This document shows, one piece after another, positions 16,531 to 25,800 of a stretch of 64,000 nt of DNA (the first letter of the stretch is position 1; the number at the start of each line of letters is the position of its first letter). Under the pieces are notes generated by a model, which was given only the letters and a program-made list of their open reading frames with translations, was not told where the DNA came from and ran no database searches. The stretch lies in assembly GCF_009914755.1 (NCBI RefSeq), contig NC_060947.1; one strand, given 5' to 3'. Source of the DNA: the human T2T-CHM13v2.0 reference genome, Homo sapiens. Made by a program: the position numbers and the translations under genes.

Positions 16531-17289
16531 CTACCTCTGTCACCTCCCTTTTTCCTTCTTCCAAGACGTAAAATGTGGCAGGGAGTAAGGTTATGGTGTC
16601 TCCTCGGGAACTGGCCCTCCAACATTTGCCCACCTTTATCTTCTGCCTGCTTGGGAGAATATGGAACATTGTTTACCCTAACAGCACACTCCAACTCTGT
16701 TGAAACTGCCAGATCTATGGGATGGTTTCTCGGTTAATTATCATAAAAACAGGAGAGTGCATTTTGTGACTGAGGTACACACATGTAAGAAATAAACACC
16801 AAGGACATCTCGATGTTAAAGCAGCTAACAAGTCATTGTTATGGGCCATTAAAAATCAACAGCCAAACCTGTGTCAATTCCAAACTCTGAGGAGGCTGAT
16901 CACCTGACCACTACAATCATCAGGATAGAATTTTAAAATAAGATTGTAAATTGTTCACTAAAACACTGTTAGTGGGGAGGAGAAAATAGAGTTTCAATGT
17001 GGGAAAAGCAAAGGGACTTACATATTTTTATAATATTTGAAAAGCCATTAATTACTGCCTTCACTTTCCTTTTTTGAAAATTGCATCAGGGTTTTTGGGA
17101 GGTAACTTCCTTCCCTCCAGAAGAGAAACCCCTAAAAACGATCCTCACACAAAACCTGAGAAAACATGAGAGCAATGCTTTTGTTTCTAAGATGTTAGAA
17201 TCCACATATTTATTAGGTTTTTAGACCTCTTCTCCCTCAACTCCTTTTTTTTCCCTCCTTTTCTTTAGGAGCTGTGAAATTAGTTGTAA

Positions 17290-17493
<204 letters not shown>

Positions 17494-18174
17494 TGAAAAT
17501 GGGCTAGTTTATTCTTTCATTTTCACTTTCTTTCTTAGGTAGTTGTTTCTTGAGGATTGACTGTTCAGGGCCTGCCGGCCCTTTACATCTACGTCTTCAG
17601 AGGTTGCATTTTGTCAGAGAATAATGTTTGATTGATTTACTGTGGGCTGACAGAAAATACATTTACACTATGTTTGCTTTTCACATAAAATTAAATTCAT
17701 AGTGTTAAGCCAAGGGTAATCATAGCAACAGTACTGTCTTGAATATATCAACAGTGACTTTCTTTCTGATAATGTAGAGTAGAATTTACAATAATCCCTC
17801 CCTAACTATAAGTTGTTCTTTTTGGAAATTTGGGTATAGGTAGGTTTACTTCTGTATACCTTTTTGATAACTGAAAATTTTGAATTCAGTATATGAGAAT
17901 CAGTCCACGTTGCCACAATATTGTCTCTCTGACTATATTGTAAGTGGGAAGGCATTTCTGAGTCATTTGTTTCCATTATCATTCTTCAACCTGTTTTCCC
18001 CTAGACAGCCCCATGTGTACTGAGTAGCACACCAATATATTATAATTTATCCTTCTGGTGTTTGTAATACCATTTGGTGCTTAAATGTCATATGCTAATG
18101 CTTTGTGACGTGCAGGGATATGAAATCTCTAGTAAGTAACTTTCAGGTTACATTAATTAGCATAAAGCTGAAAC

Positions 18175-20200
18175 ATGGCTTCTACAGATATGAAGCAAGT
18201 ACAAGGGCACTGACACCATAGAAACTTGTCAGAAGGGCAAGAAGGGTGATGTCTTTAGAAGAGAAACAGGACATTCTCAATCTACTTCTTCAAGGTAAAA
18301 TAAATAGCTTTGTAGGTCACTTATATAGTGTTAATCAATCTACAATTCATACCACAAAGAAAGCTGAAACTATTAGTATGGCCAGTACTGCCACTTGTAC
18401 ACCTGCATAACTTAAAAGATGCTTTGTTCTTCATGACCCAAGGATGGAAAAGATGGAAATGAAGTTAAATCTCTGGATTGAAGATAAACTGAAGAATAAT
18501 GAACCACATTCCATGCAAGAGATTTGTGACTATGCAAGAGGAATTTTCAGAGACATGTCTTTAGACACTGAAATGAATCCAGAAAAAAATTTGTTGGGAG
18601 TAAGGGATGGTTTGAGGAATTTAGGGTGTACCATAATGTGGAGACCAGGTCTTATTTGACAGTTATGCCAAAGAACAAACAGTTCCTGCAGCTCTCATGT
18701 TGTATTCACCACAAATTCAGGAAGTGGCTGAAGAAGGGGATTACATGCCTGCACAAATCTTTAGTGCTATCGAGAGTGTCAAGCTTTGAAACCCTTTGAA
18801 TACTTCTGAAGAGCAAGCGCCCACTGATGCTGAGGTCAACAAAATCAGAGAAGCTGACATTTCCATTTTTTGCCAATACTTCAGGTGACCTCATAATGAA
18901 ACCCTTGCTGCTCTACAGAAAATTGTGCCCAAACCCTCTCAGGGGAAATAAATGAGCCAAGTTTCCAGTGTACTAGCAAGCAAACAGAAAAGCCCAGATG
19001 AATCTTCCTCTCCTTAAGGGATGGTTTGAACAGTACTTTCTTGTGGATGTTCAAGACTACTTAAAAGAAAAAAAAAATACCTTGAATTCAAAGTCCTGCT
19101 GATTCTTCAGTCTATTTGGTGCTTCAGGTACATTTGCCAATATGCATCCTCATGGTAAGGTTGTCTTTATAACTAGCCACATGTCTGAGATTCTTGAGCC
19201 TTTCAGTCAGTGTTTGATCTGGCCATTCAGGAAGGCTTATTATAAACTAATGTATAACTTTGTTCACAATCTCGCAAAGTTTCCACTGTCTGAAAATCCT
19301 AGTGCATGAGACTCCTACATCGTTATTAATGGCATATCCTTAATAAAAGTTTGGCTTTTGATTTTTAATGGGTTTTCAGGAGATAACTTCCCAAAGAGGC
19401 ATTAGATAGTTTAACAGAGCCTGTCATTAATGTGACCTGTGAGAAGACTTGGCTAGAGGTGGTGAAATATCTTTCCTCTATCCCTCCCAAAGACAAGAAA
19501 AACCTATGGATGAGGATGAAAATTTGGCACAAGAGCAATCATTGGCGGAAGTTGAATCTGAAACTGTTGACACCAATTCAAGTTAATGCTGCTAGAGGCT
19601 GATCCTCAGGAAGCTTTCTTGACTCCAGAGGTTATTATCATAAGTGATGATGAAGACAATTAGGAGGCTGTGGGACTGGAAACAAATACAGCAATAAGAA
19701 ACAGGAGCAAAATTTTTAGAACAAGATTAAAACCTCCCTAAGAAGGTAATTAAAATTGGCATCTTTACATGTGTCAGATATTACCTGTTCAAAGTTTGAG
19801 TGACTTAGAGTTCTATAAAGAGGTGCTATGATGCCATCAAACATAATCATATTGGACAGAAACAATCTTCAATAGAACTTAAATCATGTGCCATTTAATA
19901 CTGTTGCTGGACAGCTGATAAAACTACCTTCTGACAAAGTTTGATTTAATTAGACTCTAATAAAAGGTCCTATGAGACTTTCTAAAAGACTATATTGGGA
20001 AGAAAGAAACCTCAGAAAAGTCTAAATTATCAAGTAGTACCATTTAAATACTCTTACTGGACAGCTAATAAGCTACCTTCAGACAAAGATTGAATGATTA
20101 AATTGAACTCCATACAGAACTGCTAAGGTGTCTTCAAAAAGGACTTGAGAAGATGAAAGCATCTTTAGAAGGGCCACTTAAATTCACTTGCTTGATAGAA
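18175..20200 (+). pseudogene. Decayed pogo/Tigger-family (CENP-B/TIGD-like) transposase-derived ORF
   Basis: Colinear motifs across frameshifts: RRVMSLEEKQDIL...YSVNQSTIH (HTH), MEKMEMKLNLWIED and FVGSKGWFEEFR (CENP-B-type HTH), then EEGDYMPAQIFSAIES, ANTSGDLIMKPLLLYR, FPVY*QANRKA, LEFKVLLILQ and KVVFITSHMSEILEPFSQCLIWPFRKAYY (DDE_1 region). Multiple stops and frameshifts; 3' boundary approximate. Confidence 0.85.
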
Positions 20201-20689
20201 ATAAAGCCTCAAGCAAGTTGTTATAACTTCAGGATTCGACTTCACTGACTCTAAGAGTATAGACATCCATAATTTGAACTAATGAATAGTCCACTTCTGT
20301 TCATTGCTTCTCTGTCACCCCCATTTGCCACTACCATAATGAGTGATAGATACATCTTCATCACCTCTGGAAATCATCTCAGGATCTAAATGGAAACTGT
20401 ATAAAGCCTATCATTTTTACTGATTTAAACTATGTAAACTCATTATTCTTTTTATGTAATGTGCTGTTGTTATTGTTTACCTGCATAAAAATATTTATGA
20501 GGGTTTTCAACAGTTTACTTGAGACCTCATTTTTGCCCATTTTTTTCCTTCCCGATATCATGATCTCCTCAGCTGAACTTTCTTACCTTGGGGGTTGTTC
20601 AGGAACTGACTCTCATGGGGAAAGAGGGATTACTATTTCTGTGTTCCTATCTCTTGGTAACTGCTTAACCACAGTCAGTCTTGAACTAA

Positions 20690-20890
20690 TGGAAGGAGCA
20701 CTGGACTTGGGTTCTTGAGACCTGGGTTCATGTTCAGTTCTGCCACTGATTATTGTGACATTGGGCCAGTCACTTGATTTCTCTGAGCCTCAGTTTCATC
20801 ACCTGTTAAGTGAGGATAGTAATACCTGGCACAAATATCACAATATTAGTGATAATTGAATATAATTATAAGTACCCAATGGCTATTAAA
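20690..20890 (+). mobile_element. MIR SINE
   Basis: CTGGGTTC..TCTGCCACT..TGTGACATTGGGCCAGTCACTT..TCTCTGAGCCTCAGTTTC. Confidence 0.8.
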
Positions 20891-22584
20891 AGTAAAACTA
20901 GGAAGTGCTGAATAACCATAATATCATTATATTTGTAGCATTTTGGACCTTATCAATGAACAACTGAGAAAACTAGGTTTTTGAATTCTTTTACTTTTTA
21001 AAGTAACTTCCTCCCATTTTTATGTCAATTATAGAAAATTTTAAAAAGAAAATTAAATGTGCCTATAATTTTATAAGCCGGAGGTAACTAAGTTGGTATT
21101 TTTCTTCTTAGTACCTCTTTGTCTCATCATAAATTGTTCATCAATGTCAAAAACTTGGAAAATAAAGATAAGCATATAGAAAAAAATAAAAACCACCCAT
21201 AATCACAAATCCCAGAAGCAATGTTAATATTTTGGTGGATTTATTTCCAGTCTTTTTCTATGGCTATATGTGCACATATATAATTTTTACATAGAAAAAG
21301 TCATAATGCATACAGCTTTGTTGCTTTTAGCATTTTTATCATGAATATTTTCCTACATTTATGCAAAGTATTTGTAAATATCATTTTCAATGGTGTATAA
21401 TATTTCATCATAGGATGACATCATGGTTTAGTTAACCATTTTCTTTTGTTGGATATTTGAGGGTCTTTCCAAATTTGGCCATTGTAATTTCACAATGTCT
21501 TTTTCATTACCTAACTGAAAATATTTGCTTTGGTGAAAGCAGAGGATTTTTTGTTGTTTGTTTGTTTGTTTTTGAAGAAGTCCTTTTAATAGCTACATTT
21601 CATTGACTAAGTGGAACTTCAAGAGACAGGTAGAAGAAAAAAAAAAAGAAACAGTAGATGTAATTTCAAGATTGAGGATTTATTTTGTTAGTGACTGTTC
21701 CAGAAGCTGAATTTTGGTGTTAGAGCAATTCAGGAGGGACAGTTTGCCACCATTTTATGATACTTTACTGTAGAAAAGTTTTCAGGATTTAGACCAGGAA
21801 AGAGACATCCTAACCATATGGGTTGATTTTATTTTATGGACCCTGTGAAGTCTGGGACTGATCAGGTTTCTCTTTTGTTGGCTACTAGAAAGCTTGGAGT
21901 CAAATGTGTGGTCAATGCATAGCACTTGTAATGGGACTCTACGGTATGTATGCACTTTGTATTAGCTTTCTGCCAGGCTCCATTTCGTGTTCCTATCTTT
22001 ATTGTTTTTGTTTTTTCCTTTTACTTTCTTATCTACTTTGAATTTATGCTATCATGTTGTATTTTGTGTATTCTTGTAAGCCACCTGACATCCATCTTGG
22101 AACATGGTGGGGAATAAACACACTAATAAATAAATACATTAATAAATACATGAATAAATAAACCAATAAGGAAAAAACAATGAGGCAAATGAATGCAGCC
22201 AGGACTCTGAAAATTGCATAGTGCCTCCAAGAATAATCAATGTTAAGGACTTGAAGCTTGGAAGAACATATTGGAAAGAAGCAGGTGAGGCTGCGAGGCT
22301 GCATTTAGAGGTGACGTGTTCTGTGTGACGTCTGTGTCTACTGAAGCATGCTTATATGTCTTGTGTCTTCTGCTGCACTTGAGCATTAGGTGTGTTTCAG
22401 AGGATATGCAGTGCTGCGTAATGGACTGTGTCTTTAGAGGGCACAGTTCATGTGCATTTTATTTGTGGGGAATCTAGAGAGATTTGGGAGTTGGTGAGCC
22501 TGGGAATGATGTGATGATCCTTTTTCATGGAGGCATAGGAAGGAATCATTGTATATAAATCAAATCAAGACAAATAGGAAGTTT

Positions 22585-22810
22585 CCTACCATTTACTAAC
22601 TAGTTACTGGGTGCCAAGCTATGTGCCAGGCACTTTACATGTATTGATTTAACACTTAACAGCCACTCTATATTATTCCCTTTTTACAGATGAGGCAATT
22701 TAAGCTCAAAGCATTTAAGTAGACAACCAACCTAGAATCACATAGCAAATGACAGAAGCCAGAGGCCTCCCAAGTCTCTCTAACTCCAAACCCTATGCTT
22801 ACTCTACTAT
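22585..22810 (-). mobile_element. MIR SINE
   Basis: TATGTGCCAGGCACTTTACA..TTTTACAGATGAGGCAA reverse MIR core. Confidence 0.75.
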
Positions 22811-25800
22811 ATCACACTACCTTGCAATAGGACAAAGGGAATATGTGGTAAACTATGTTCCCAGCATCTAAAAGCCAGGAGTGGTTTTCATTTTTCTTTA
22901 AGAAGATGATAGTGTGATTTGAAACATATCTGAATTTCAGAAGAGGGGACTTTTAAAAATTGCCACTCATAAGGAAAGAAAGAACTTTTTCACATATTTT
23001 TGAAAGAAACGATGGTGAGAAGATATTCTTGATAATAGAGATATGCTAACATTTGCTTTGGGTGTTTTGTAGGTTAGATTTTTTTGGTGTGTACTTTATA
23101 GGCTTGCATATTGCTTACTTTAAACAGCTGAAGTTCTAAGTAAGAGTGTTCATATATGTGAAAGAGTTCTTAAAGTACTATATAGTTTTGTTATTGTATT
23201 GAATATATATTGTTCTAATTCCTAGAGTATGTCATCTTCTATATACTCTATACAGCAGGAATCCTTGCTGTACAACAATTATATTAAAGAAAACTCTCAG
23301 TTATCCTTTATGGTCTTGTCAATCAAATGTTTTGGTCAATGCATATTACTAACTTTCATCTAATTAATGCACAATAAAATATACTTAGTGTGATAACAGT
23401 ATGCAGTCTTTCTTTGGTGATACTGGAGACCCTTTGGATCTTGCAGTAGCTCAAAGTTATTATCACTGCACCAATAATGTGTAAGAGTGTCAATTAATTC
23501 AGGGTTCTGTTATCAGAAAGCCAGGTATCAGAGACTGCTACATCCTGAATGGTGCTTACATTCTTGGTTCTGCAAATGTAGCCCATCCAGCTTAGCAAAG
23601 AGTGTTCTTTGGAAATCACTGCCCTGCCCTTTTGGAAACCTGAAGGACATGGCATCTTGCTTGTCCTCTAGGGTCAGTGCTATGCCCCAATAGAAGAGTC
23701 TCTTGTACTACTCCTTTACTCCTAGGAAACCCGTGTTGAAATGGGAAGAAGGTGGAATAAGGACACACTCTCCCTATCTACCAGGGTCTGTGCTTCCACT
23801 TTAAGGCCAATGAATGGGGAAACTGGGCACAAATATGGTAGCCCCGTAAAACCAACAGACAGTCAAATGCAAGAGAAGTATGGAATGTAGGGTTGGGAGA
23901 TGTTTACACTAAGGTAAAGAAGCCACAGGGAGAAATAAACTGAGAGGAAGTAATGACTGAAAGGGAGATTAGGAGGTGGAGAAGATACAGAGGATGGATG
24001 GAATAAGAGGGGAAGACAGAAGAGTGCTGTATCAAACACGCAGTTTGATATGCTTTAAAAAATGGAGTGTTGCAAGAAGAGGAAAATTGACAAAGGCTAA
24101 GGGATATGAAGTTGCTTTCCCCATTAAGGCAAATGAGGCCTCCTTTTTCTCCTCAGACTTTTACCCTATATAATTATCCACATGATCAGAAGTGTCTAGT
24201 TAGGACATTGCCTCATCTTTGCTTTTTGTTTTCAAATGTTTCCCATCAAAGTTGTTGCATATGTCAATTGAATGCAAATGAAAGTGGAACCAGTATGTGT
24301 TGCCTAGAGGGAGATGAGTAAGAGGTAACTTCCTAATGATTTCCCAGAATAATCACTGTTGCTGAATGTTTTTGAAGATGATACCACTGAAGGTGCTAGC
24401 TGTTTGCATGTGTGAGTGGGGGTGACTTGAAGGGCTCACATGTGACTATCATTTTACTTCCCCCATCCCATCATCCTCACGGAACATCTGACCTGTGAAT
24501 TGGGCTTGTGGTCACTCTTGCAGAATCAGGTACCACATTGAGTTTTATCTGTACATTAAAGCCTGCTAATTTGTGGAGGACATATGTTGTTTTCCATAGC
24601 CACTGAAGACCTAGCAGGAGAAACTGGGCTTAATATTCCACCAGAGAGAATGGAACTAGACATAAATTCCAGATAGGCTAATTGGATGCTATAGGTTACT
24701 AAGAGTGACATTTTCTAGAATCTTCATTAGATATCTCATGGCTTTAGCAAGTTCTACATGAAGGCAGGAGAATGGACCTTCCACCATGGGCCTTCCCAAC
24801 TATATGCTTTTGAGATTTGCTAATATAATAAAAGATATTATAATAAGAGCAGTGAATGTTTAAGATGGCCCAGTTTAATCCTCTTTTCTCAGTAGTTATA
24901 CTTCTAAGGATATCACTCATAAGATGAAAGTGCTAGGTCTAAACATAGTCACCCTGTTACTTAGTATATTGCCATAAGATGATGTATTTTGGAAAGCCGT
25001 TATAGGTGTATTACAATGTTCAAAACCTCTCATATCAGTTACCTTCTTCAAACTTCCTATGATGGAGGTAAGGCAGGGATTATTCCCATTTTACAGAGGA
25101 AGGCAGAAGTTCAGAGAGGTTAAATGACTTCCACAAATTTGCTCCACTACTTAATAACAAAGCAAGGCAGACCTAGAATTTGGATCCCCCAACTCCTAGT
25201 CCAGTGGTAGTTGAAGACTATACTGCTTACATAAAATGAGAGTAGCTTGTTTTGTAAACAGGTTTCAGCCAATGGAATATGCAAAAATGGAATTTTTACA
25301 GAAGCAAGTAGAACCCAGGTGCCTCAGTGGTTACAACAGTAGTCATACCTTTATCCTGACAAGTTTTTCCTCCTGAGGGCCTAATTTGCTAATAGGAAGT
25401 AACTAGCTTTTGTAAAAAAGAAAAATATGGAATATTAAAATAGAACACAGGAGTGGTGCACCTATCATCCCTCCCCTTAGATTCATTCATGATCCAGAAT
25501 GTAAAAGATATTTGGGCCGTCTTACTCATTTAATGAACACCTTCCTTTTCTGCTCAGAATCAATATGTATTCGCCCAAGATGCTAAGTTTATGCCAGAAA
25601 TATGTATGTTATGTGGAATTTCTTTTAAAATTCTTATTCAGCGTGTACTGTCAGTTGCTTTAAATACTTACTGCCAACAATAAAATCTATTTTTATGCCT
25701 ATCTTTCTATTGTAGTCACCACATATACTTTCACATATTTCCAATGCAAAAAAAAAAATAAATTTGTAGGCCCACACAATGATAGTCTTTATACCAAAAA

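What the first reader, a model, noticed from the sequence alone, without database searches (positions are those of the whole stretch)
18147..20205. Candidate extinct domesticated pogo/Tigger transposase gene nested in sense within a PAK3 intron
Seen: a near full-length, colinear transposase-like reading path broken by stops and frameshifts. It has HTH RRARRVMSLEEKQDILNLL..YSVNQSTIH (18231-), MEKMEMKLNLWIED (18444-), FVGSKGWFEEFR (18590-, after a frameshift in an A7 run), DDE_1-region motifs 18730-19243, KEALDSLTEPVINVTCEKTWLEVV (19393-), then ~700 nt of further protein-like sequence and AATAAA at 20200. I could not see Tigger-type terminal inverted repeats. Known: pogo transposases were repeatedly domesticated (CENP-B, JRK, TIGD1-7, POGK), usually as one coding exon, and PGBD3 in an ERCC6 intron is expressed through host splicing. 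Inference: this was a host gene using PAK3 transcripts, is now dead in this lineage, and may be intact in other mammals.
Basis: partly seen in the sequence, partly recalled or inferred. Interest (0 to 1): 0.85.

Follow-up and report, generated by a model that had tools for sequence, protein, structure and literature searches.

The report
Dead domesticated transposase gene in PAK3
A stretch inside an intron of the human PAK3 gene is the broken remains of a gene that mammals once made from a pogo/Tigger jumping-gene enzyme; the gene is still whole in some other species but has decayed in humans.

Summary
Window 18175-19663 (+) reads colinearly against an intact 501-aa protein from public data (P0004): 325 of 478 aligned codons are identical, interrupted by 8 stops and 8 frameshifts, with at least one more frameshift just after the conserved ATG. 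It is single-copy in the human genome. The next best human match to P0004 is only 29% identical.

Three full-length relatives (501-510 aa, 74-82% identical to each other) have the pogo architecture: CENP-B_N, HTH_Tnp_Tc5 and DDE_1. They lack two of the three catalytic aspartates, and so do the human relic and every other clade member that covers the site.

A Pyrenean desman gene model joins PAK3 coding exon 1 to this ORF, in the same order and on the same strand as in the window. The locus is therefore orthologous in two mammalian superorders.

Intact copies sit on short tree branches (0.03-0.14); broken copies sit on long ones (0.24-0.40).

Verdict: this is a unitary pseudogene of an undescribed TIGD-like domesticated pogo gene. 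Use of PAK3 splicing is plausible but unproven. The claimed "~700 nt of further protein-like sequence" after 19663 is not supported.

The parts
17269..17470 (+). PAK3 exon holding the PAK3 start codon (coding 17296-17470, 175 nt, so the exon ends in phase 1). It is the upstream host exon that the desman model fuses to the transposase-derived ORF.
   Evidence: Exon coordinates come from the hub's gene table. Desman protein P0007, residues 1-43, matches window 17347-17475 at 95% identity.
18175..19663 (+). Unitary pseudogene of a 501-aa pogo/Tigger-derived protein, from the conserved ATG to the TAG stop at 19661-19663. It is broken by 8 stops and at least 9 frameshifts.
- Stops: 18219, 18408, 18787, 18953, 18974, 19307, 19366, 19384.
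- Frameshifts near: 18185-18192, 18588, 18674, 18832, 19079, 19114, 19340, 19495, 19584.
   Evidence: Frameshift-aware alignment to P0004: 478 codons aligned, 325 identical. tblastn of P0004-P0007 against the window. It is the best match to P0004 in the human genome.
18231..18386 (+). Relic of the first helix-turn-helix (CENP-B_N type). It corresponds to P0004 residues 27-78 and aligns without gaps.
   Evidence: Pfam CENP-B_N on P0004-P0006 at residues 27-78: P0006 scores 23.6 bits, above the 21.2-bit cut-off; P0004 and P0005 score below it. Alignment.
18453..18650 (+). Relic of the second DNA-binding domain (HTH_Tnp_Tc5), approximately P0004 residues 101-166. It is split by the frameshift in the A-run at about 18588.
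   Evidence: Pfam HTH_Tnp_Tc5 on P0004 at residues 101-166: 25.8 bits against a 22.2-bit cut-off. Alignment. Coordinates are approximate.
18848..19446 (+). Relic of the DDE_1 (RNase H-like) core, approximately P0004 residues 240-421. The human residues at the three catalytic columns are I, Q and S.
   Evidence: Pfam DDE_1 on P0004 at residues 240-421: E 1.9e-27. Catalytic columns, human residues read from the alignment. Coordinates are approximate.
19497..19660 (+). Relic of the variable acidic C-terminal tail. It ends in an acidic run directly before the stop, as in P0004.
   Evidence: The tail is the least conserved part among the intact proteins, at 46-57% identity.
19664..20205 (+). 3' flank with no protein similarity, probably former 3' UTR. 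It holds a tandem duplication of about 145-150 nt (19790-20093) and AATAAA at 20200-20205.
   Evidence: noise only; direct repeats D2, D3 and D5, spacing 145-150 nt.
18441..18443 (+). AG acceptor (18441-18442) of the RefSeq alternative PAK3 terminal exon 18443-23396. It lies inside the relic's coding path. Joined to the phase-1 PAK3 exon it reads in the wrong frame and stops after 6 codons.
   Evidence: Exon coordinates come from the hub's table. The frame was worked out from the sequence.

Best explanation
Window 18175-19663 is the dead human copy (a unitary pseudogene) of an old, single-copy, domesticated pogo/Tigger transposase gene. The gene sits in sense orientation in the intron that follows PAK3's first coding exon.

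In species where it is intact, it encodes a protein of about 501 aa. That protein keeps the transposase's bipartite helix-turn-helix DNA-binding region (CENP-B_N plus HTH_Tnp_Tc5) and a strongly conserved RNase H-like DDE_1 core. It has lost two of the three catalytic aspartates, so it cannot transpose. It most likely acts as a sequence-specific DNA- or chromatin-binding factor, like CENP-B, JRK and the TIGD proteins; this step is inferred.

The catalytic loss is shared by every member of the clade, including the human relic, so it predates their divergence. The locus is shared by human and desman, so the gene existed in their common ancestor.

In the human lineage selection was lost long ago and the ORF accumulated stops, frameshifts and small indels at roughly the neutral expectation.

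The way it is expressed is inferred rather than shown. Most likely it is transcribed within PAK3 pre-mRNA as an alternative terminal exon and translated either from its own conserved ATG or as an in-frame fusion to the 58 N-terminal residues of PAK3. I put the fusion at about 0.35.
For: **The relic is real and colinear.** Against P0004, 478 codons align and 325 are identical, with 8 stops and 8 frameshifts.

**It is single-copy in human.**
- A DNA search of the human assembly finds only the locus itself.
- With P0004 as query, the two best human matches are this locus (63% and 53% identity per frame piece). The next is a 631-aa open frame on contig C2 (chromosome 2) at 29% identity.
- The relic's own pieces find nothing above 39% or 33% elsewhere in the genome.

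**Intact counterparts exist.** P0004 (501 aa), P0005 (501 aa) and P0006 (510 aa) are 74-82% identical to each other.

**The architecture is that of a pogo transposase.**
- DDE_1 scores E 1.9e-27 and HTH_Tnp_Tc5 scores 25.8 bits on P0004; CENP-B_N passes its cut-off in P0006.
- The AlphaFold model (pLDDT 73) matches the Mos1 transposase (E 5e-6) and the CENP-B DNA-binding domain (E 9e-4).

**Catalysis is lost.**
- The first aspartate is V or I in 4 of 4 clade proteins, and the second is H in 3 of 3. Among 16 other pogo proteins, 12 keep the first aspartate and 13 keep the second.
- None of the 17 clade sequences covering the first column has D: 12 by pattern, and 5 more read by eye. The human relic has I.

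**There are signs of constraint.**
- Identity among the intact proteins is 89-93% in DDE_1 and 46-57% in the tails.
- Terminal branches are 0.033-0.14 for the intact copies and 0.24-0.40 for the human relic and three other broken pieces.
- The whole clade has 100/100 support.

**The locus is orthologous.** The desman model P0007 consists of PAK3 exon residues (window 17347-17475, 95% identity) followed by this ORF (window 18192-19657).

**There are no TIRs**.
Against: - No nucleotide sequences of the intact copies could be fetched, so dN/dS was not computed. Constraint is argued only from proxies.
- The organisms behind P0004-P0006 are unnamed. The only named relative, the desman model, lacks 112 residues of the core. 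It comes from a homology and ab initio pipeline run on a hard-masked genome without RNA-seq, so neither its intactness nor the fusion is demonstrated.
- Apart from the desman entry, no named protein turned up among the 7 and 23 hits. This is odd for a gene conserved in mammals. It suggests the gene is broken or unannotated in most annotated species.
- 21 short public ORF pieces of the same gene, several with out-of-frame tails, show that decay is widespread. Function may therefore have been confined to a few lineages.
- The human RefSeq acceptor at 18443 is out of frame with the relic.
- All 3 intact proteins keep their own ATG and a conserved first ~10 residues. Those residues would be intronic in the desman-type fusion.
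Confidence: 0.85

Rival explanations
1. This is an ordinary decayed copy of an ancient multicopy Tigger DNA transposon that landed in the PAK3 intron and was never used by the host.
For: The human genome holds very many Tigger-like relics: 150 scored matches from 1577 candidates with the DDE piece. The relic is as broken as such copies usually are. The piecewise Pfam hits are weak.
Against: - No second human copy is closer than 29-39% identity.
- There are no TIRs.
- Full-length open counterparts 74-82% identical to each other exist, with an ancestral loss of catalytic residues.
- The same ORF sits behind the same PAK3 exon in the desman.
- Intact copies evolve 3-10 times more slowly than broken ones.
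Confidence: 0.05
2. The gene was domesticated as a stand-alone gene with its own promoter and start codon. It merely resides in the PAK3 intron. The PAK3-exon fusion in the desman is a gene-prediction artefact.
For: All 3 intact proteins start with the same Met-Ala-Ser-Val N-terminus, and the ATG is kept in human at 18175. The desman annotation used no RNA-seq. The human alternative acceptor at 18443 is out of frame. According to Gao et al. 2020, most known domesticated pogo genes derive from the complete transposase gene, with only CENPB, POGK and POGZ being chimeric fusions (passages read).
Against: - There is no CpG-rich or promoter-like region just upstream in human: GC is 34-38% over 17700-18450.
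- The gene lies in sense orientation directly behind the exon with the PAK3 start codon.
- Human RefSeq still lists PAK3 transcripts that end inside this intron (hub table).
- Transposase capture by splicing is a documented route (Cosby et al. preprint, passages read).
Confidence: 0.45
3. The intact proteins P0004-P0006 are transposases of a still-mobile element in other animals, and their likeness to the human relic is only family-level.
For: Their sources are unnamed and their genomic context was not seen.
Against: - They lack catalytic aspartates 1 and 2.
- They have 1-2 member sequences each.
- They are 60-68% identical to the human relic, against at most 38% to any other protein among 1.84 billion representatives.
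- They form a 100/100 clade with the human and desman sequences on a stem of 1.19 substitutions per site.
Confidence: 0.03

Closest known systems
TIGD1-7, JRK, JRKL, CENPB (domesticated pogo/Tigger transposase genes of vertebrates)
   Same: The origin is the same (pogo superfamily) and so is the architecture: CENP-B_N, HTH_Tnp_Tc5 and DDE_1. Like them it is single-copy and lacks TIRs. It has partial or complete loss of the DDD triad, as reported for several TIGD genes (passages of PMC7325037 and PMC7386202 read).
   Different: - It is not an orthologue or close paralogue of any of them. The best intact human frame, on contig C2 (chromosome 2), is 29% identical; I take it to be TIGD1 from its position and length, which is recalled and not given by a tool. 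Others are 22-28% identical.
- It forms its own clade on a long stem.
- It is dead in human and in many other lineages.
- It is nested in a PAK3 intron.
- It is absent from the gene lists in those two papers. PAK3 occurs 0 times in their main texts and in the supplementary files held.
CSB-PGBD3 (ERCC6 intron 5), SETMAR, KRABINER: host-transposase fusions made by splicing
   Same: A transposase ORF lies in sense orientation in an intron of a host gene. The desman model splices the upstream host exon in frame to the ORF. This mechanism is described in the Cosby et al. preprint (passages read).
   Different: - The fusion here is only a computational model.
- The transposase is pogo, not piggyBac or mariner.
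- The host part would be a 58-residue kinase N-terminus rather than a large functional domain.
- The human copy is a pseudogene.
- PAK3 and 'kinase' occur 0 times in that preprint's main text. Its supplementary tables could not be seen.
Unitary pseudogenes (genes lost in the human lineage with no functional paralogue)
   Same: There are many disabling mutations at a conserved syntenic position, intact counterparts elsewhere, and no close paralogue in the genome.
   Different: The parent gene is itself transposon-derived. It appears to have been lost repeatedly: 21 broken or partial pieces from at least 17 sequence groups.

Membership tests
pogo/Tigger transposase superfamily (by descent) | DDE_1 (RNase H-like) transposase domain | tested here: met
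   P0004-P0006 score E 1.9e-27 to 4.5e-26 over the full profile. The human relic aligns colinearly to this region, though its best single piece scores only E 0.096. The fold matches the Mos1, Metnase and Sleeping Beauty catalytic domains.
pogo/Tigger transposase superfamily (by descent) | Bipartite N-terminal DNA-binding region (CENP-B_N / HTH_psq plus HTH_Tnp_Tc5) | tested here: met
   HTH_Tnp_Tc5 is above its cut-off in P0004 and P0007. CENP-B_N is above its cut-off in P0006 and just below it in P0004, P0005 and P0007. Foldseek hits the CENP-B(1-129)-DNA complex at E 9.4e-4.
Active (autonomous) pogo/Tigger transposon | Intact DDD catalytic triad | tested here: not met
   The triad reads V/I, H, D in the intact proteins and I, Q, S in the human relic.
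Active (autonomous) pogo/Tigger transposon | Terminal inverted repeats with a TA target-site duplication | tested here: not met
   The inverted-repeat scan of 17471-20600 found no flanking pair, only short chance-level matches. Very old TIRs could have decayed beyond detection.
Active (autonomous) pogo/Tigger transposon | Multiple related copies in the genome | tested here: not met
   The DNA search finds 1 match, the locus itself. By protein, the next best is 29-39% identical. The tool's counts are lower bounds.
Domesticated transposase gene | Orthologous (syntenic) single locus in distant species | tested here: met
   Shown for human and Pyrenean desman. P0007 joins the PAK3 exon to the ORF in the same order and strand as in the window. 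The context of P0004-P0006 was not seen.
Domesticated transposase gene | Open reading frame kept across divergent species | tested here: met
   All 3 full-length records are open at 74-82% mutual identity. At 32% divergence the human copy carries 8 stops and at least 9 frameshifts.
Domesticated transposase gene | Purifying selection (dN/dS well below 1) | not testable with these tools
   No nucleotide sequences of the orthologues were available. Only proxies exist: short branches for intact copies against long ones for broken copies, and domain-dependent conservation.
Domesticated transposase gene | Expression and function in the host | not testable with these tools
   No transcript or protein data for the species with the intact ORF.
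Host-transposase fusion by alternative splicing (CSB-PGBD3 type) | Transcripts joining host exons in frame to the transposase ORF | tested here: inconclusive
   The desman model is in frame but purely computational. The human RefSeq alternative exon 18443-23396 joins out of frame and stops after 6 codons (worked out and the hub table).
Unitary pseudogene in human | Disabling mutations and no functional paralogue | tested here: met

The most novel reading that the evidence does not exclude
Early placental mammals had a PAK3-pogo host-transposase fusion gene. PAK3's first coding exon contributed 58 residues, including its proline-rich N-terminus, spliced in frame to a catalytically dead, DNA-binding pogo transposase encoded in the next intron. 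This would tie a neuronal kinase locus to a chromatin-binding product. The gene survives in a minority of mammals and was lost independently many times, including in the human lineage. In humans its remains still supply a splice acceptor and an intronic transcript end for short PAK3 transcripts.
Probability: 0.3. Interest if true: 0.7.

Novelty: new member of a known kind. Interest (0 to 1): 0.55.

Why it matters
Domesticated pogo transposases (CENP-B, JRK, TIGD1-7, POGK, POGZ) are catalogued mainly from genes that are intact in human. This locus points to a further, independent domestication that human-centred catalogues miss because the human copy is dead.

It offers a natural experiment in the birth and repeated loss of a transposase-derived gene. 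It is also a candidate host-transposase fusion with a kinase gene, and it gives a concrete explanation for the alternative intronic 3' ends of PAK3, an X-linked intellectual-disability gene.

The idea is directly testable with existing mammalian genome alignments and RNA-seq. I found nothing in print linking PAK3 to a pogo/Tigger-derived gene:
- The search 'PAK3' + 'transposase' gave 29 papers, and none of the 15 listed was relevant by title or abstract.
- The search 'PAK3' + 'Tigger' gave 2 papers, both irrelevant.
- PAK3 occurs 0 times in the main texts of five papers on pogo or transposase domestication.
- PAK3 occurs 0 times in the four supplementary files held.

Tried and rejected
- **Pfam on 15 single ORF pieces of the relic.** Nothing reached a cut-off. 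Besides the two expected sub-threshold hits there were two unrelated weak hits (a SHOCT-like domain and HBB), which I treat as noise.
- **tblastn of the relic's pieces against ten human loci.** Similarity is confined to the N-terminal HTH. There is no sign of a sister copy.
- **Scan of prokaryotic genome contigs for contaminating mammalian DNA carrying the gene.** I hoped to obtain nucleotide sequence for dN/dS. Of 39 pattern matches, none was confirmed.
- **PDB sequence search with P0004.** 0 hits at E <= 0.01. Only the fold search linked it to solved transposases.
- **Search for relics of a longer ancestral transposase C-terminus downstream of the stop, or of coding sequence upstream of the ATG.** Noise only.
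- **TIR search.** Nothing found.
- **Tree resolution inside the clade.** I considered using the tree to place the unnamed intact proteins relative to human and desman. The basal forks have support below 80-85, so no taxonomic inference was drawn.
- **Possible SUMO-interaction-like motif.** I considered reading the hydrophobic-then-acidic C-terminal end this way. It is not conserved in P0005 or P0006 and rests on recall only, so I dropped it.
Full report
**What is in the sequence.**
Between the PAK3 exon that carries the start codon (17269-17470; coding from 17296, from the hub table) and the next PAK3 exon lies a pogo/Tigger transposase-like reading path on the + strand.

Piece by piece the signal is weak. 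In Pfam, 0 of 15 ORF pieces reach a curated cut-off. Two give sub-threshold hits to HTH_Tnp_Tc5 (E 0.1) and DDE_1 (E 0.096), and two give unrelated weak hits.

Read-through translations with X at the stops (P0001, P0002) find many Tigger-like places in the human assembly:
- The N-terminal piece gives 115 matches at E <= 10 (150 of 163 candidates scored). The best non-self match is 39% identical.
- The DDE piece gives 150 matches (150 of 1577 candidates scored). The best non-self matches are 31-33% identical.

So the relic belongs to the pogo/Tigger superfamily but has no close copy in the human genome. A DNA search of the assembly finds only the locus itself. The tool's counts are lower bounds.

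**Intact counterparts.**
Searching 5.8 billion public proteins with the DDE piece, restricted to longer proteins, gave 2 hits among 107 candidates. P0004 and P0005 are both 501 aa and 67% and 62% identical to the query.

With P0004 as query, 7 of 7986 scored candidates passed E 1e-10:
- P0004 itself;
- P0006 (510 aa, 79% identical);
- P0005 (74% identical);
- P0007 (397 aa, 88% identical over half the query), which NCBI names 'Tigger transposable element-derived protein 1 [Galemys pyrenaicus]';
- three ordinary pogo proteins at 26-34% identity.

A frameshift-aware alignment of P0004 to the window aligns 478 codons, 325 of them identical (68%). It contains 8 stops and 8 frameshifts and ends at the same acidic C-terminus, followed by TAG at 19661-19663. 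Two of the stops lie in a human-specific insertion of about 45 nt. The ATG and the next two codons are kept at 18175, but a 7-nt shortfall before 18192 adds a ninth frameshift (read).

In the reverse direction, P0004's best matches in the human genome are this locus (63% and 53% identity for two frame pieces). The next is a 631-aa open frame on contig C2 (chromosome 2) at 29% identity. I take that frame to be TIGD1 from its position and length; this is recalled, not given by a tool.

**Same locus in another mammal.**
The first 41 residues of the desman protein are PAK3 residues. By tblastn, its residues 1-43 match window 17347-17475 at 95% identity, and the rest matches 18192-19657 on the same strand and in the same order. 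The ORF therefore sits behind the same PAK3 exon in a laurasiatherian and in human. This dates the insertion, and given the shared catalytic loss described below the domesticated state too, to before their common ancestor.

There is a caveat. The desman annotation was made with MAKER2 from protein homology, AUGUSTUS and SNAP, on a RepeatMasker hard-masked genome, without RNA-seq (PMC8288019, passages of sections 2.2 and 3.3 read). The in-frame splice is a prediction. The 112 core residues missing from the model may simply have been masked.

**Evidence that the gene was a host gene, not a mobile copy.**
1. *Architecture.* P0004 has DDE_1 (E 1.9e-27), HTH_Tnp_Tc5 (25.8 bits, cut-off 22.2) and CENP-B_N (below the cut-off in P0004 and P0005, above it in P0006). 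An AlphaFold model (mean pLDDT 73) matches the Mos1 transposase (E 5e-6), the CENP-B DNA-binding domain bound to DNA (E 9.4e-4), and the Metnase and Sleeping Beauty catalytic domains.
2. *Catalytic triad.* The first aspartate is V or I in 4 of 4 clade proteins. The second is H in 3 of 3. The third is kept in 3 of 3. Among 16 other pogo proteins in the same alignment, 12 keep the first, 13 the second and 8 the third. The human relic has I, Q and S at these columns. None of the 17 clade sequences that cover the first column has D: 12 by pattern, and 5 more read by eye from the sequences printed. The loss is therefore ancestral to the clade.
3. *Pattern of conservation among the three intact proteins.* Identity is 89-93% in DDE_1, 77-88% in the first HTH, 64-80% in the second HTH and 46-57% in both tails.
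4. *Rates.* In a maximum-likelihood tree of 18 proteins, the human relic, P0004-P0007 and three short public pieces form a 100/100 clade on a stem of 1.19 substitutions per site. Terminal branches are 0.033-0.14 for the four intact or model proteins. They are 0.35 for human and 0.24-0.40 for the three broken pieces.
5. *Open frames.* The intact proteins differ at 18-26% of residues with no stop and essentially no indel. The human copy, at 32% divergence, has 8 stops and at least 9 frameshifts. By my own estimate, about 130 amino-acid changes accumulated neutrally should bring roughly 6-8 nonsense changes and many frameshifting indels. This is an inference, not a computation.
6. *TIRs.* No TIRs flank the ORF.

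**How isolated the gene is.**
Against 1.84 billion representative proteins, P0004 has 4699 relatives at E <= 0.001. The best full-length one (P0011, 939 aa) is only 38% identical. The gene is therefore a separate lineage, not a paralogue of a known TIGD/JRK gene.

**Widespread decay.**
A search for shorter proteins gave 23 hits among 995 candidates:
- 21 are pieces of this same gene, at 51-85% identity to P0004;
- one is the window's own ORF;
- one is an unrelated pogo protein.

At 88% identity the 21 pieces fall into 17 groups. Several show out-of-frame tails. All come from unnamed sources, so the species are unknown. The picture is of a gene kept in a few lineages and lost in many.

**What the human remnant still does.**
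According to the hub table, RefSeq lists PAK3 transcripts with a read-through exon 17269-23396 and with a terminal exon 18443-23396. The acceptor AG at 18441-18442 lies inside the relic's coding path. Joined to the phase-1 PAK3 exon it reads six codons and then stops, out of frame with the relic (worked out). The locus thus still acts as an intronic transcript end for PAK3, consistent with an ancestral gene expressed through PAK3 transcription, though this does not prove it. No CpG-rich region lies upstream (GC 34-38%).

**What is not supported.**
The '~700 nt of further protein-like sequence' is not supported. From 19664 to 20500 only noise-level matches appear, as they do in the 17471-18200 region. 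The 19664-20205 stretch is best read as former 3' UTR, with a tandem duplication of about 145-150 nt and AATAAA at 20200.

**Literature.**
I found nothing linking PAK3 to a pogo/Tigger-derived gene.
- The search 'PAK3' + 'transposase' gave 29 papers. None of the 15 listed was relevant by title or abstract.
- The search 'PAK3' + 'Tigger' gave 2 papers, both irrelevant.
- Term searches found PAK3 0 times in the main texts of these papers:
  - Gao et al. 2020 (PMC7386202);
  - Dupeyron et al. 2020 (PMC7325037);
  - the 2022 Tigger survey (PMC9219625);
  - Mateo & Gonzalez 2014 (PMC4231638);
  - the Cosby et al. preprint.
- PAK3 also occurs 0 times in the two supplementary files held for each of the first two papers.
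- Gao et al. note that they excluded 'TIGD1-like' sequences of narrow distribution (passage). This gene could be among them.

**Limits.**
- No orthologous nucleotide sequences were available, so there is no dN/dS.
- The taxa of the intact copies are unknown.
- Fusion to PAK3 is not shown.
- The tree is not resolved inside the clade.

**Verdict.**
This is a real feature: a unitary pseudogene of a previously uncatalogued, TIGD-like domesticated pogo gene nested in PAK3 (confidence about 0.85). It is a new member of a known kind and of moderate interest.

Noticed in passing
window 18575-18660; proteins P0162, P0163, P0165: Downstream of the A-run near 18588, the human relic and three unnamed public pieces all read the same stretch in the same shifted frame; each has a '..DGLRN..'-like peptide where the intact proteins have '..KGWFEKF..'. 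This is either a shared ancestral frameshift or recurrent slippage in the homopolymer. It could date the loss.
   Followed up: no
window 19790-20093: The 3' flank holds a tandem duplication of about 145-150 nt (direct repeats D2, D3 and D5; 77-88% identity), just upstream of AATAAA at 20200.
   Followed up: partly
window 18441-18443 and 23376-23396: The RefSeq alternative PAK3 terminal exon starts at an AG inside the relic's coding path and ends 3.7 kb beyond the relic's stop. With PAK3 exon 17269-17470 it would encode only 58 PAK3 residues plus 6 more. The read-through exon 17269-23396 would add 8 residues and then stop.
   Followed up: partly
protein P0011 (939 aa, unnamed source): The closest full-length relative of the gene (38% identity) is itself a fusion. 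By eye its N-terminal part resembles a SCAN domain; this is recalled, with no Pfam run. It is joined to a pogo transposase whose first catalytic residue is A and third is E. This may be another host-transposase fusion in some vertebrate.
   Followed up: no
protein P0158: The public protein database holds a 135-aa 'protein' that is the window's own relic (18998-19402) read with two TGA codons as W. The tool flags it as encoded by the window.
   Followed up: yes
L005, L007, L008 (human contig C7 at 75.85, 76.05 and 76.30 Mb); L009 (contig C23 at 99.19 Mb): Three near-identical open frames of 233-243 aa on contig C7 (chromosome 7), and a 173-aa open frame on contig C23 (chromosome X), match the relic's N-terminal HTH region at 30-34% identity without stops. 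They are probably known pogo-derived genes or segmental-duplication copies. They were not identified.
   Followed up: no
window 18141-18146: A polypyrimidine-plus-AG acceptor-like site (tttcag) lies 28 nt upstream of the relic's ATG. This is the position where the Cosby et al. preprint reports that captured transposases usually carry their acceptor. In human it would be out of frame with PAK3 exon 1 and would hit a stop after 4 codons.
   Followed up: partly
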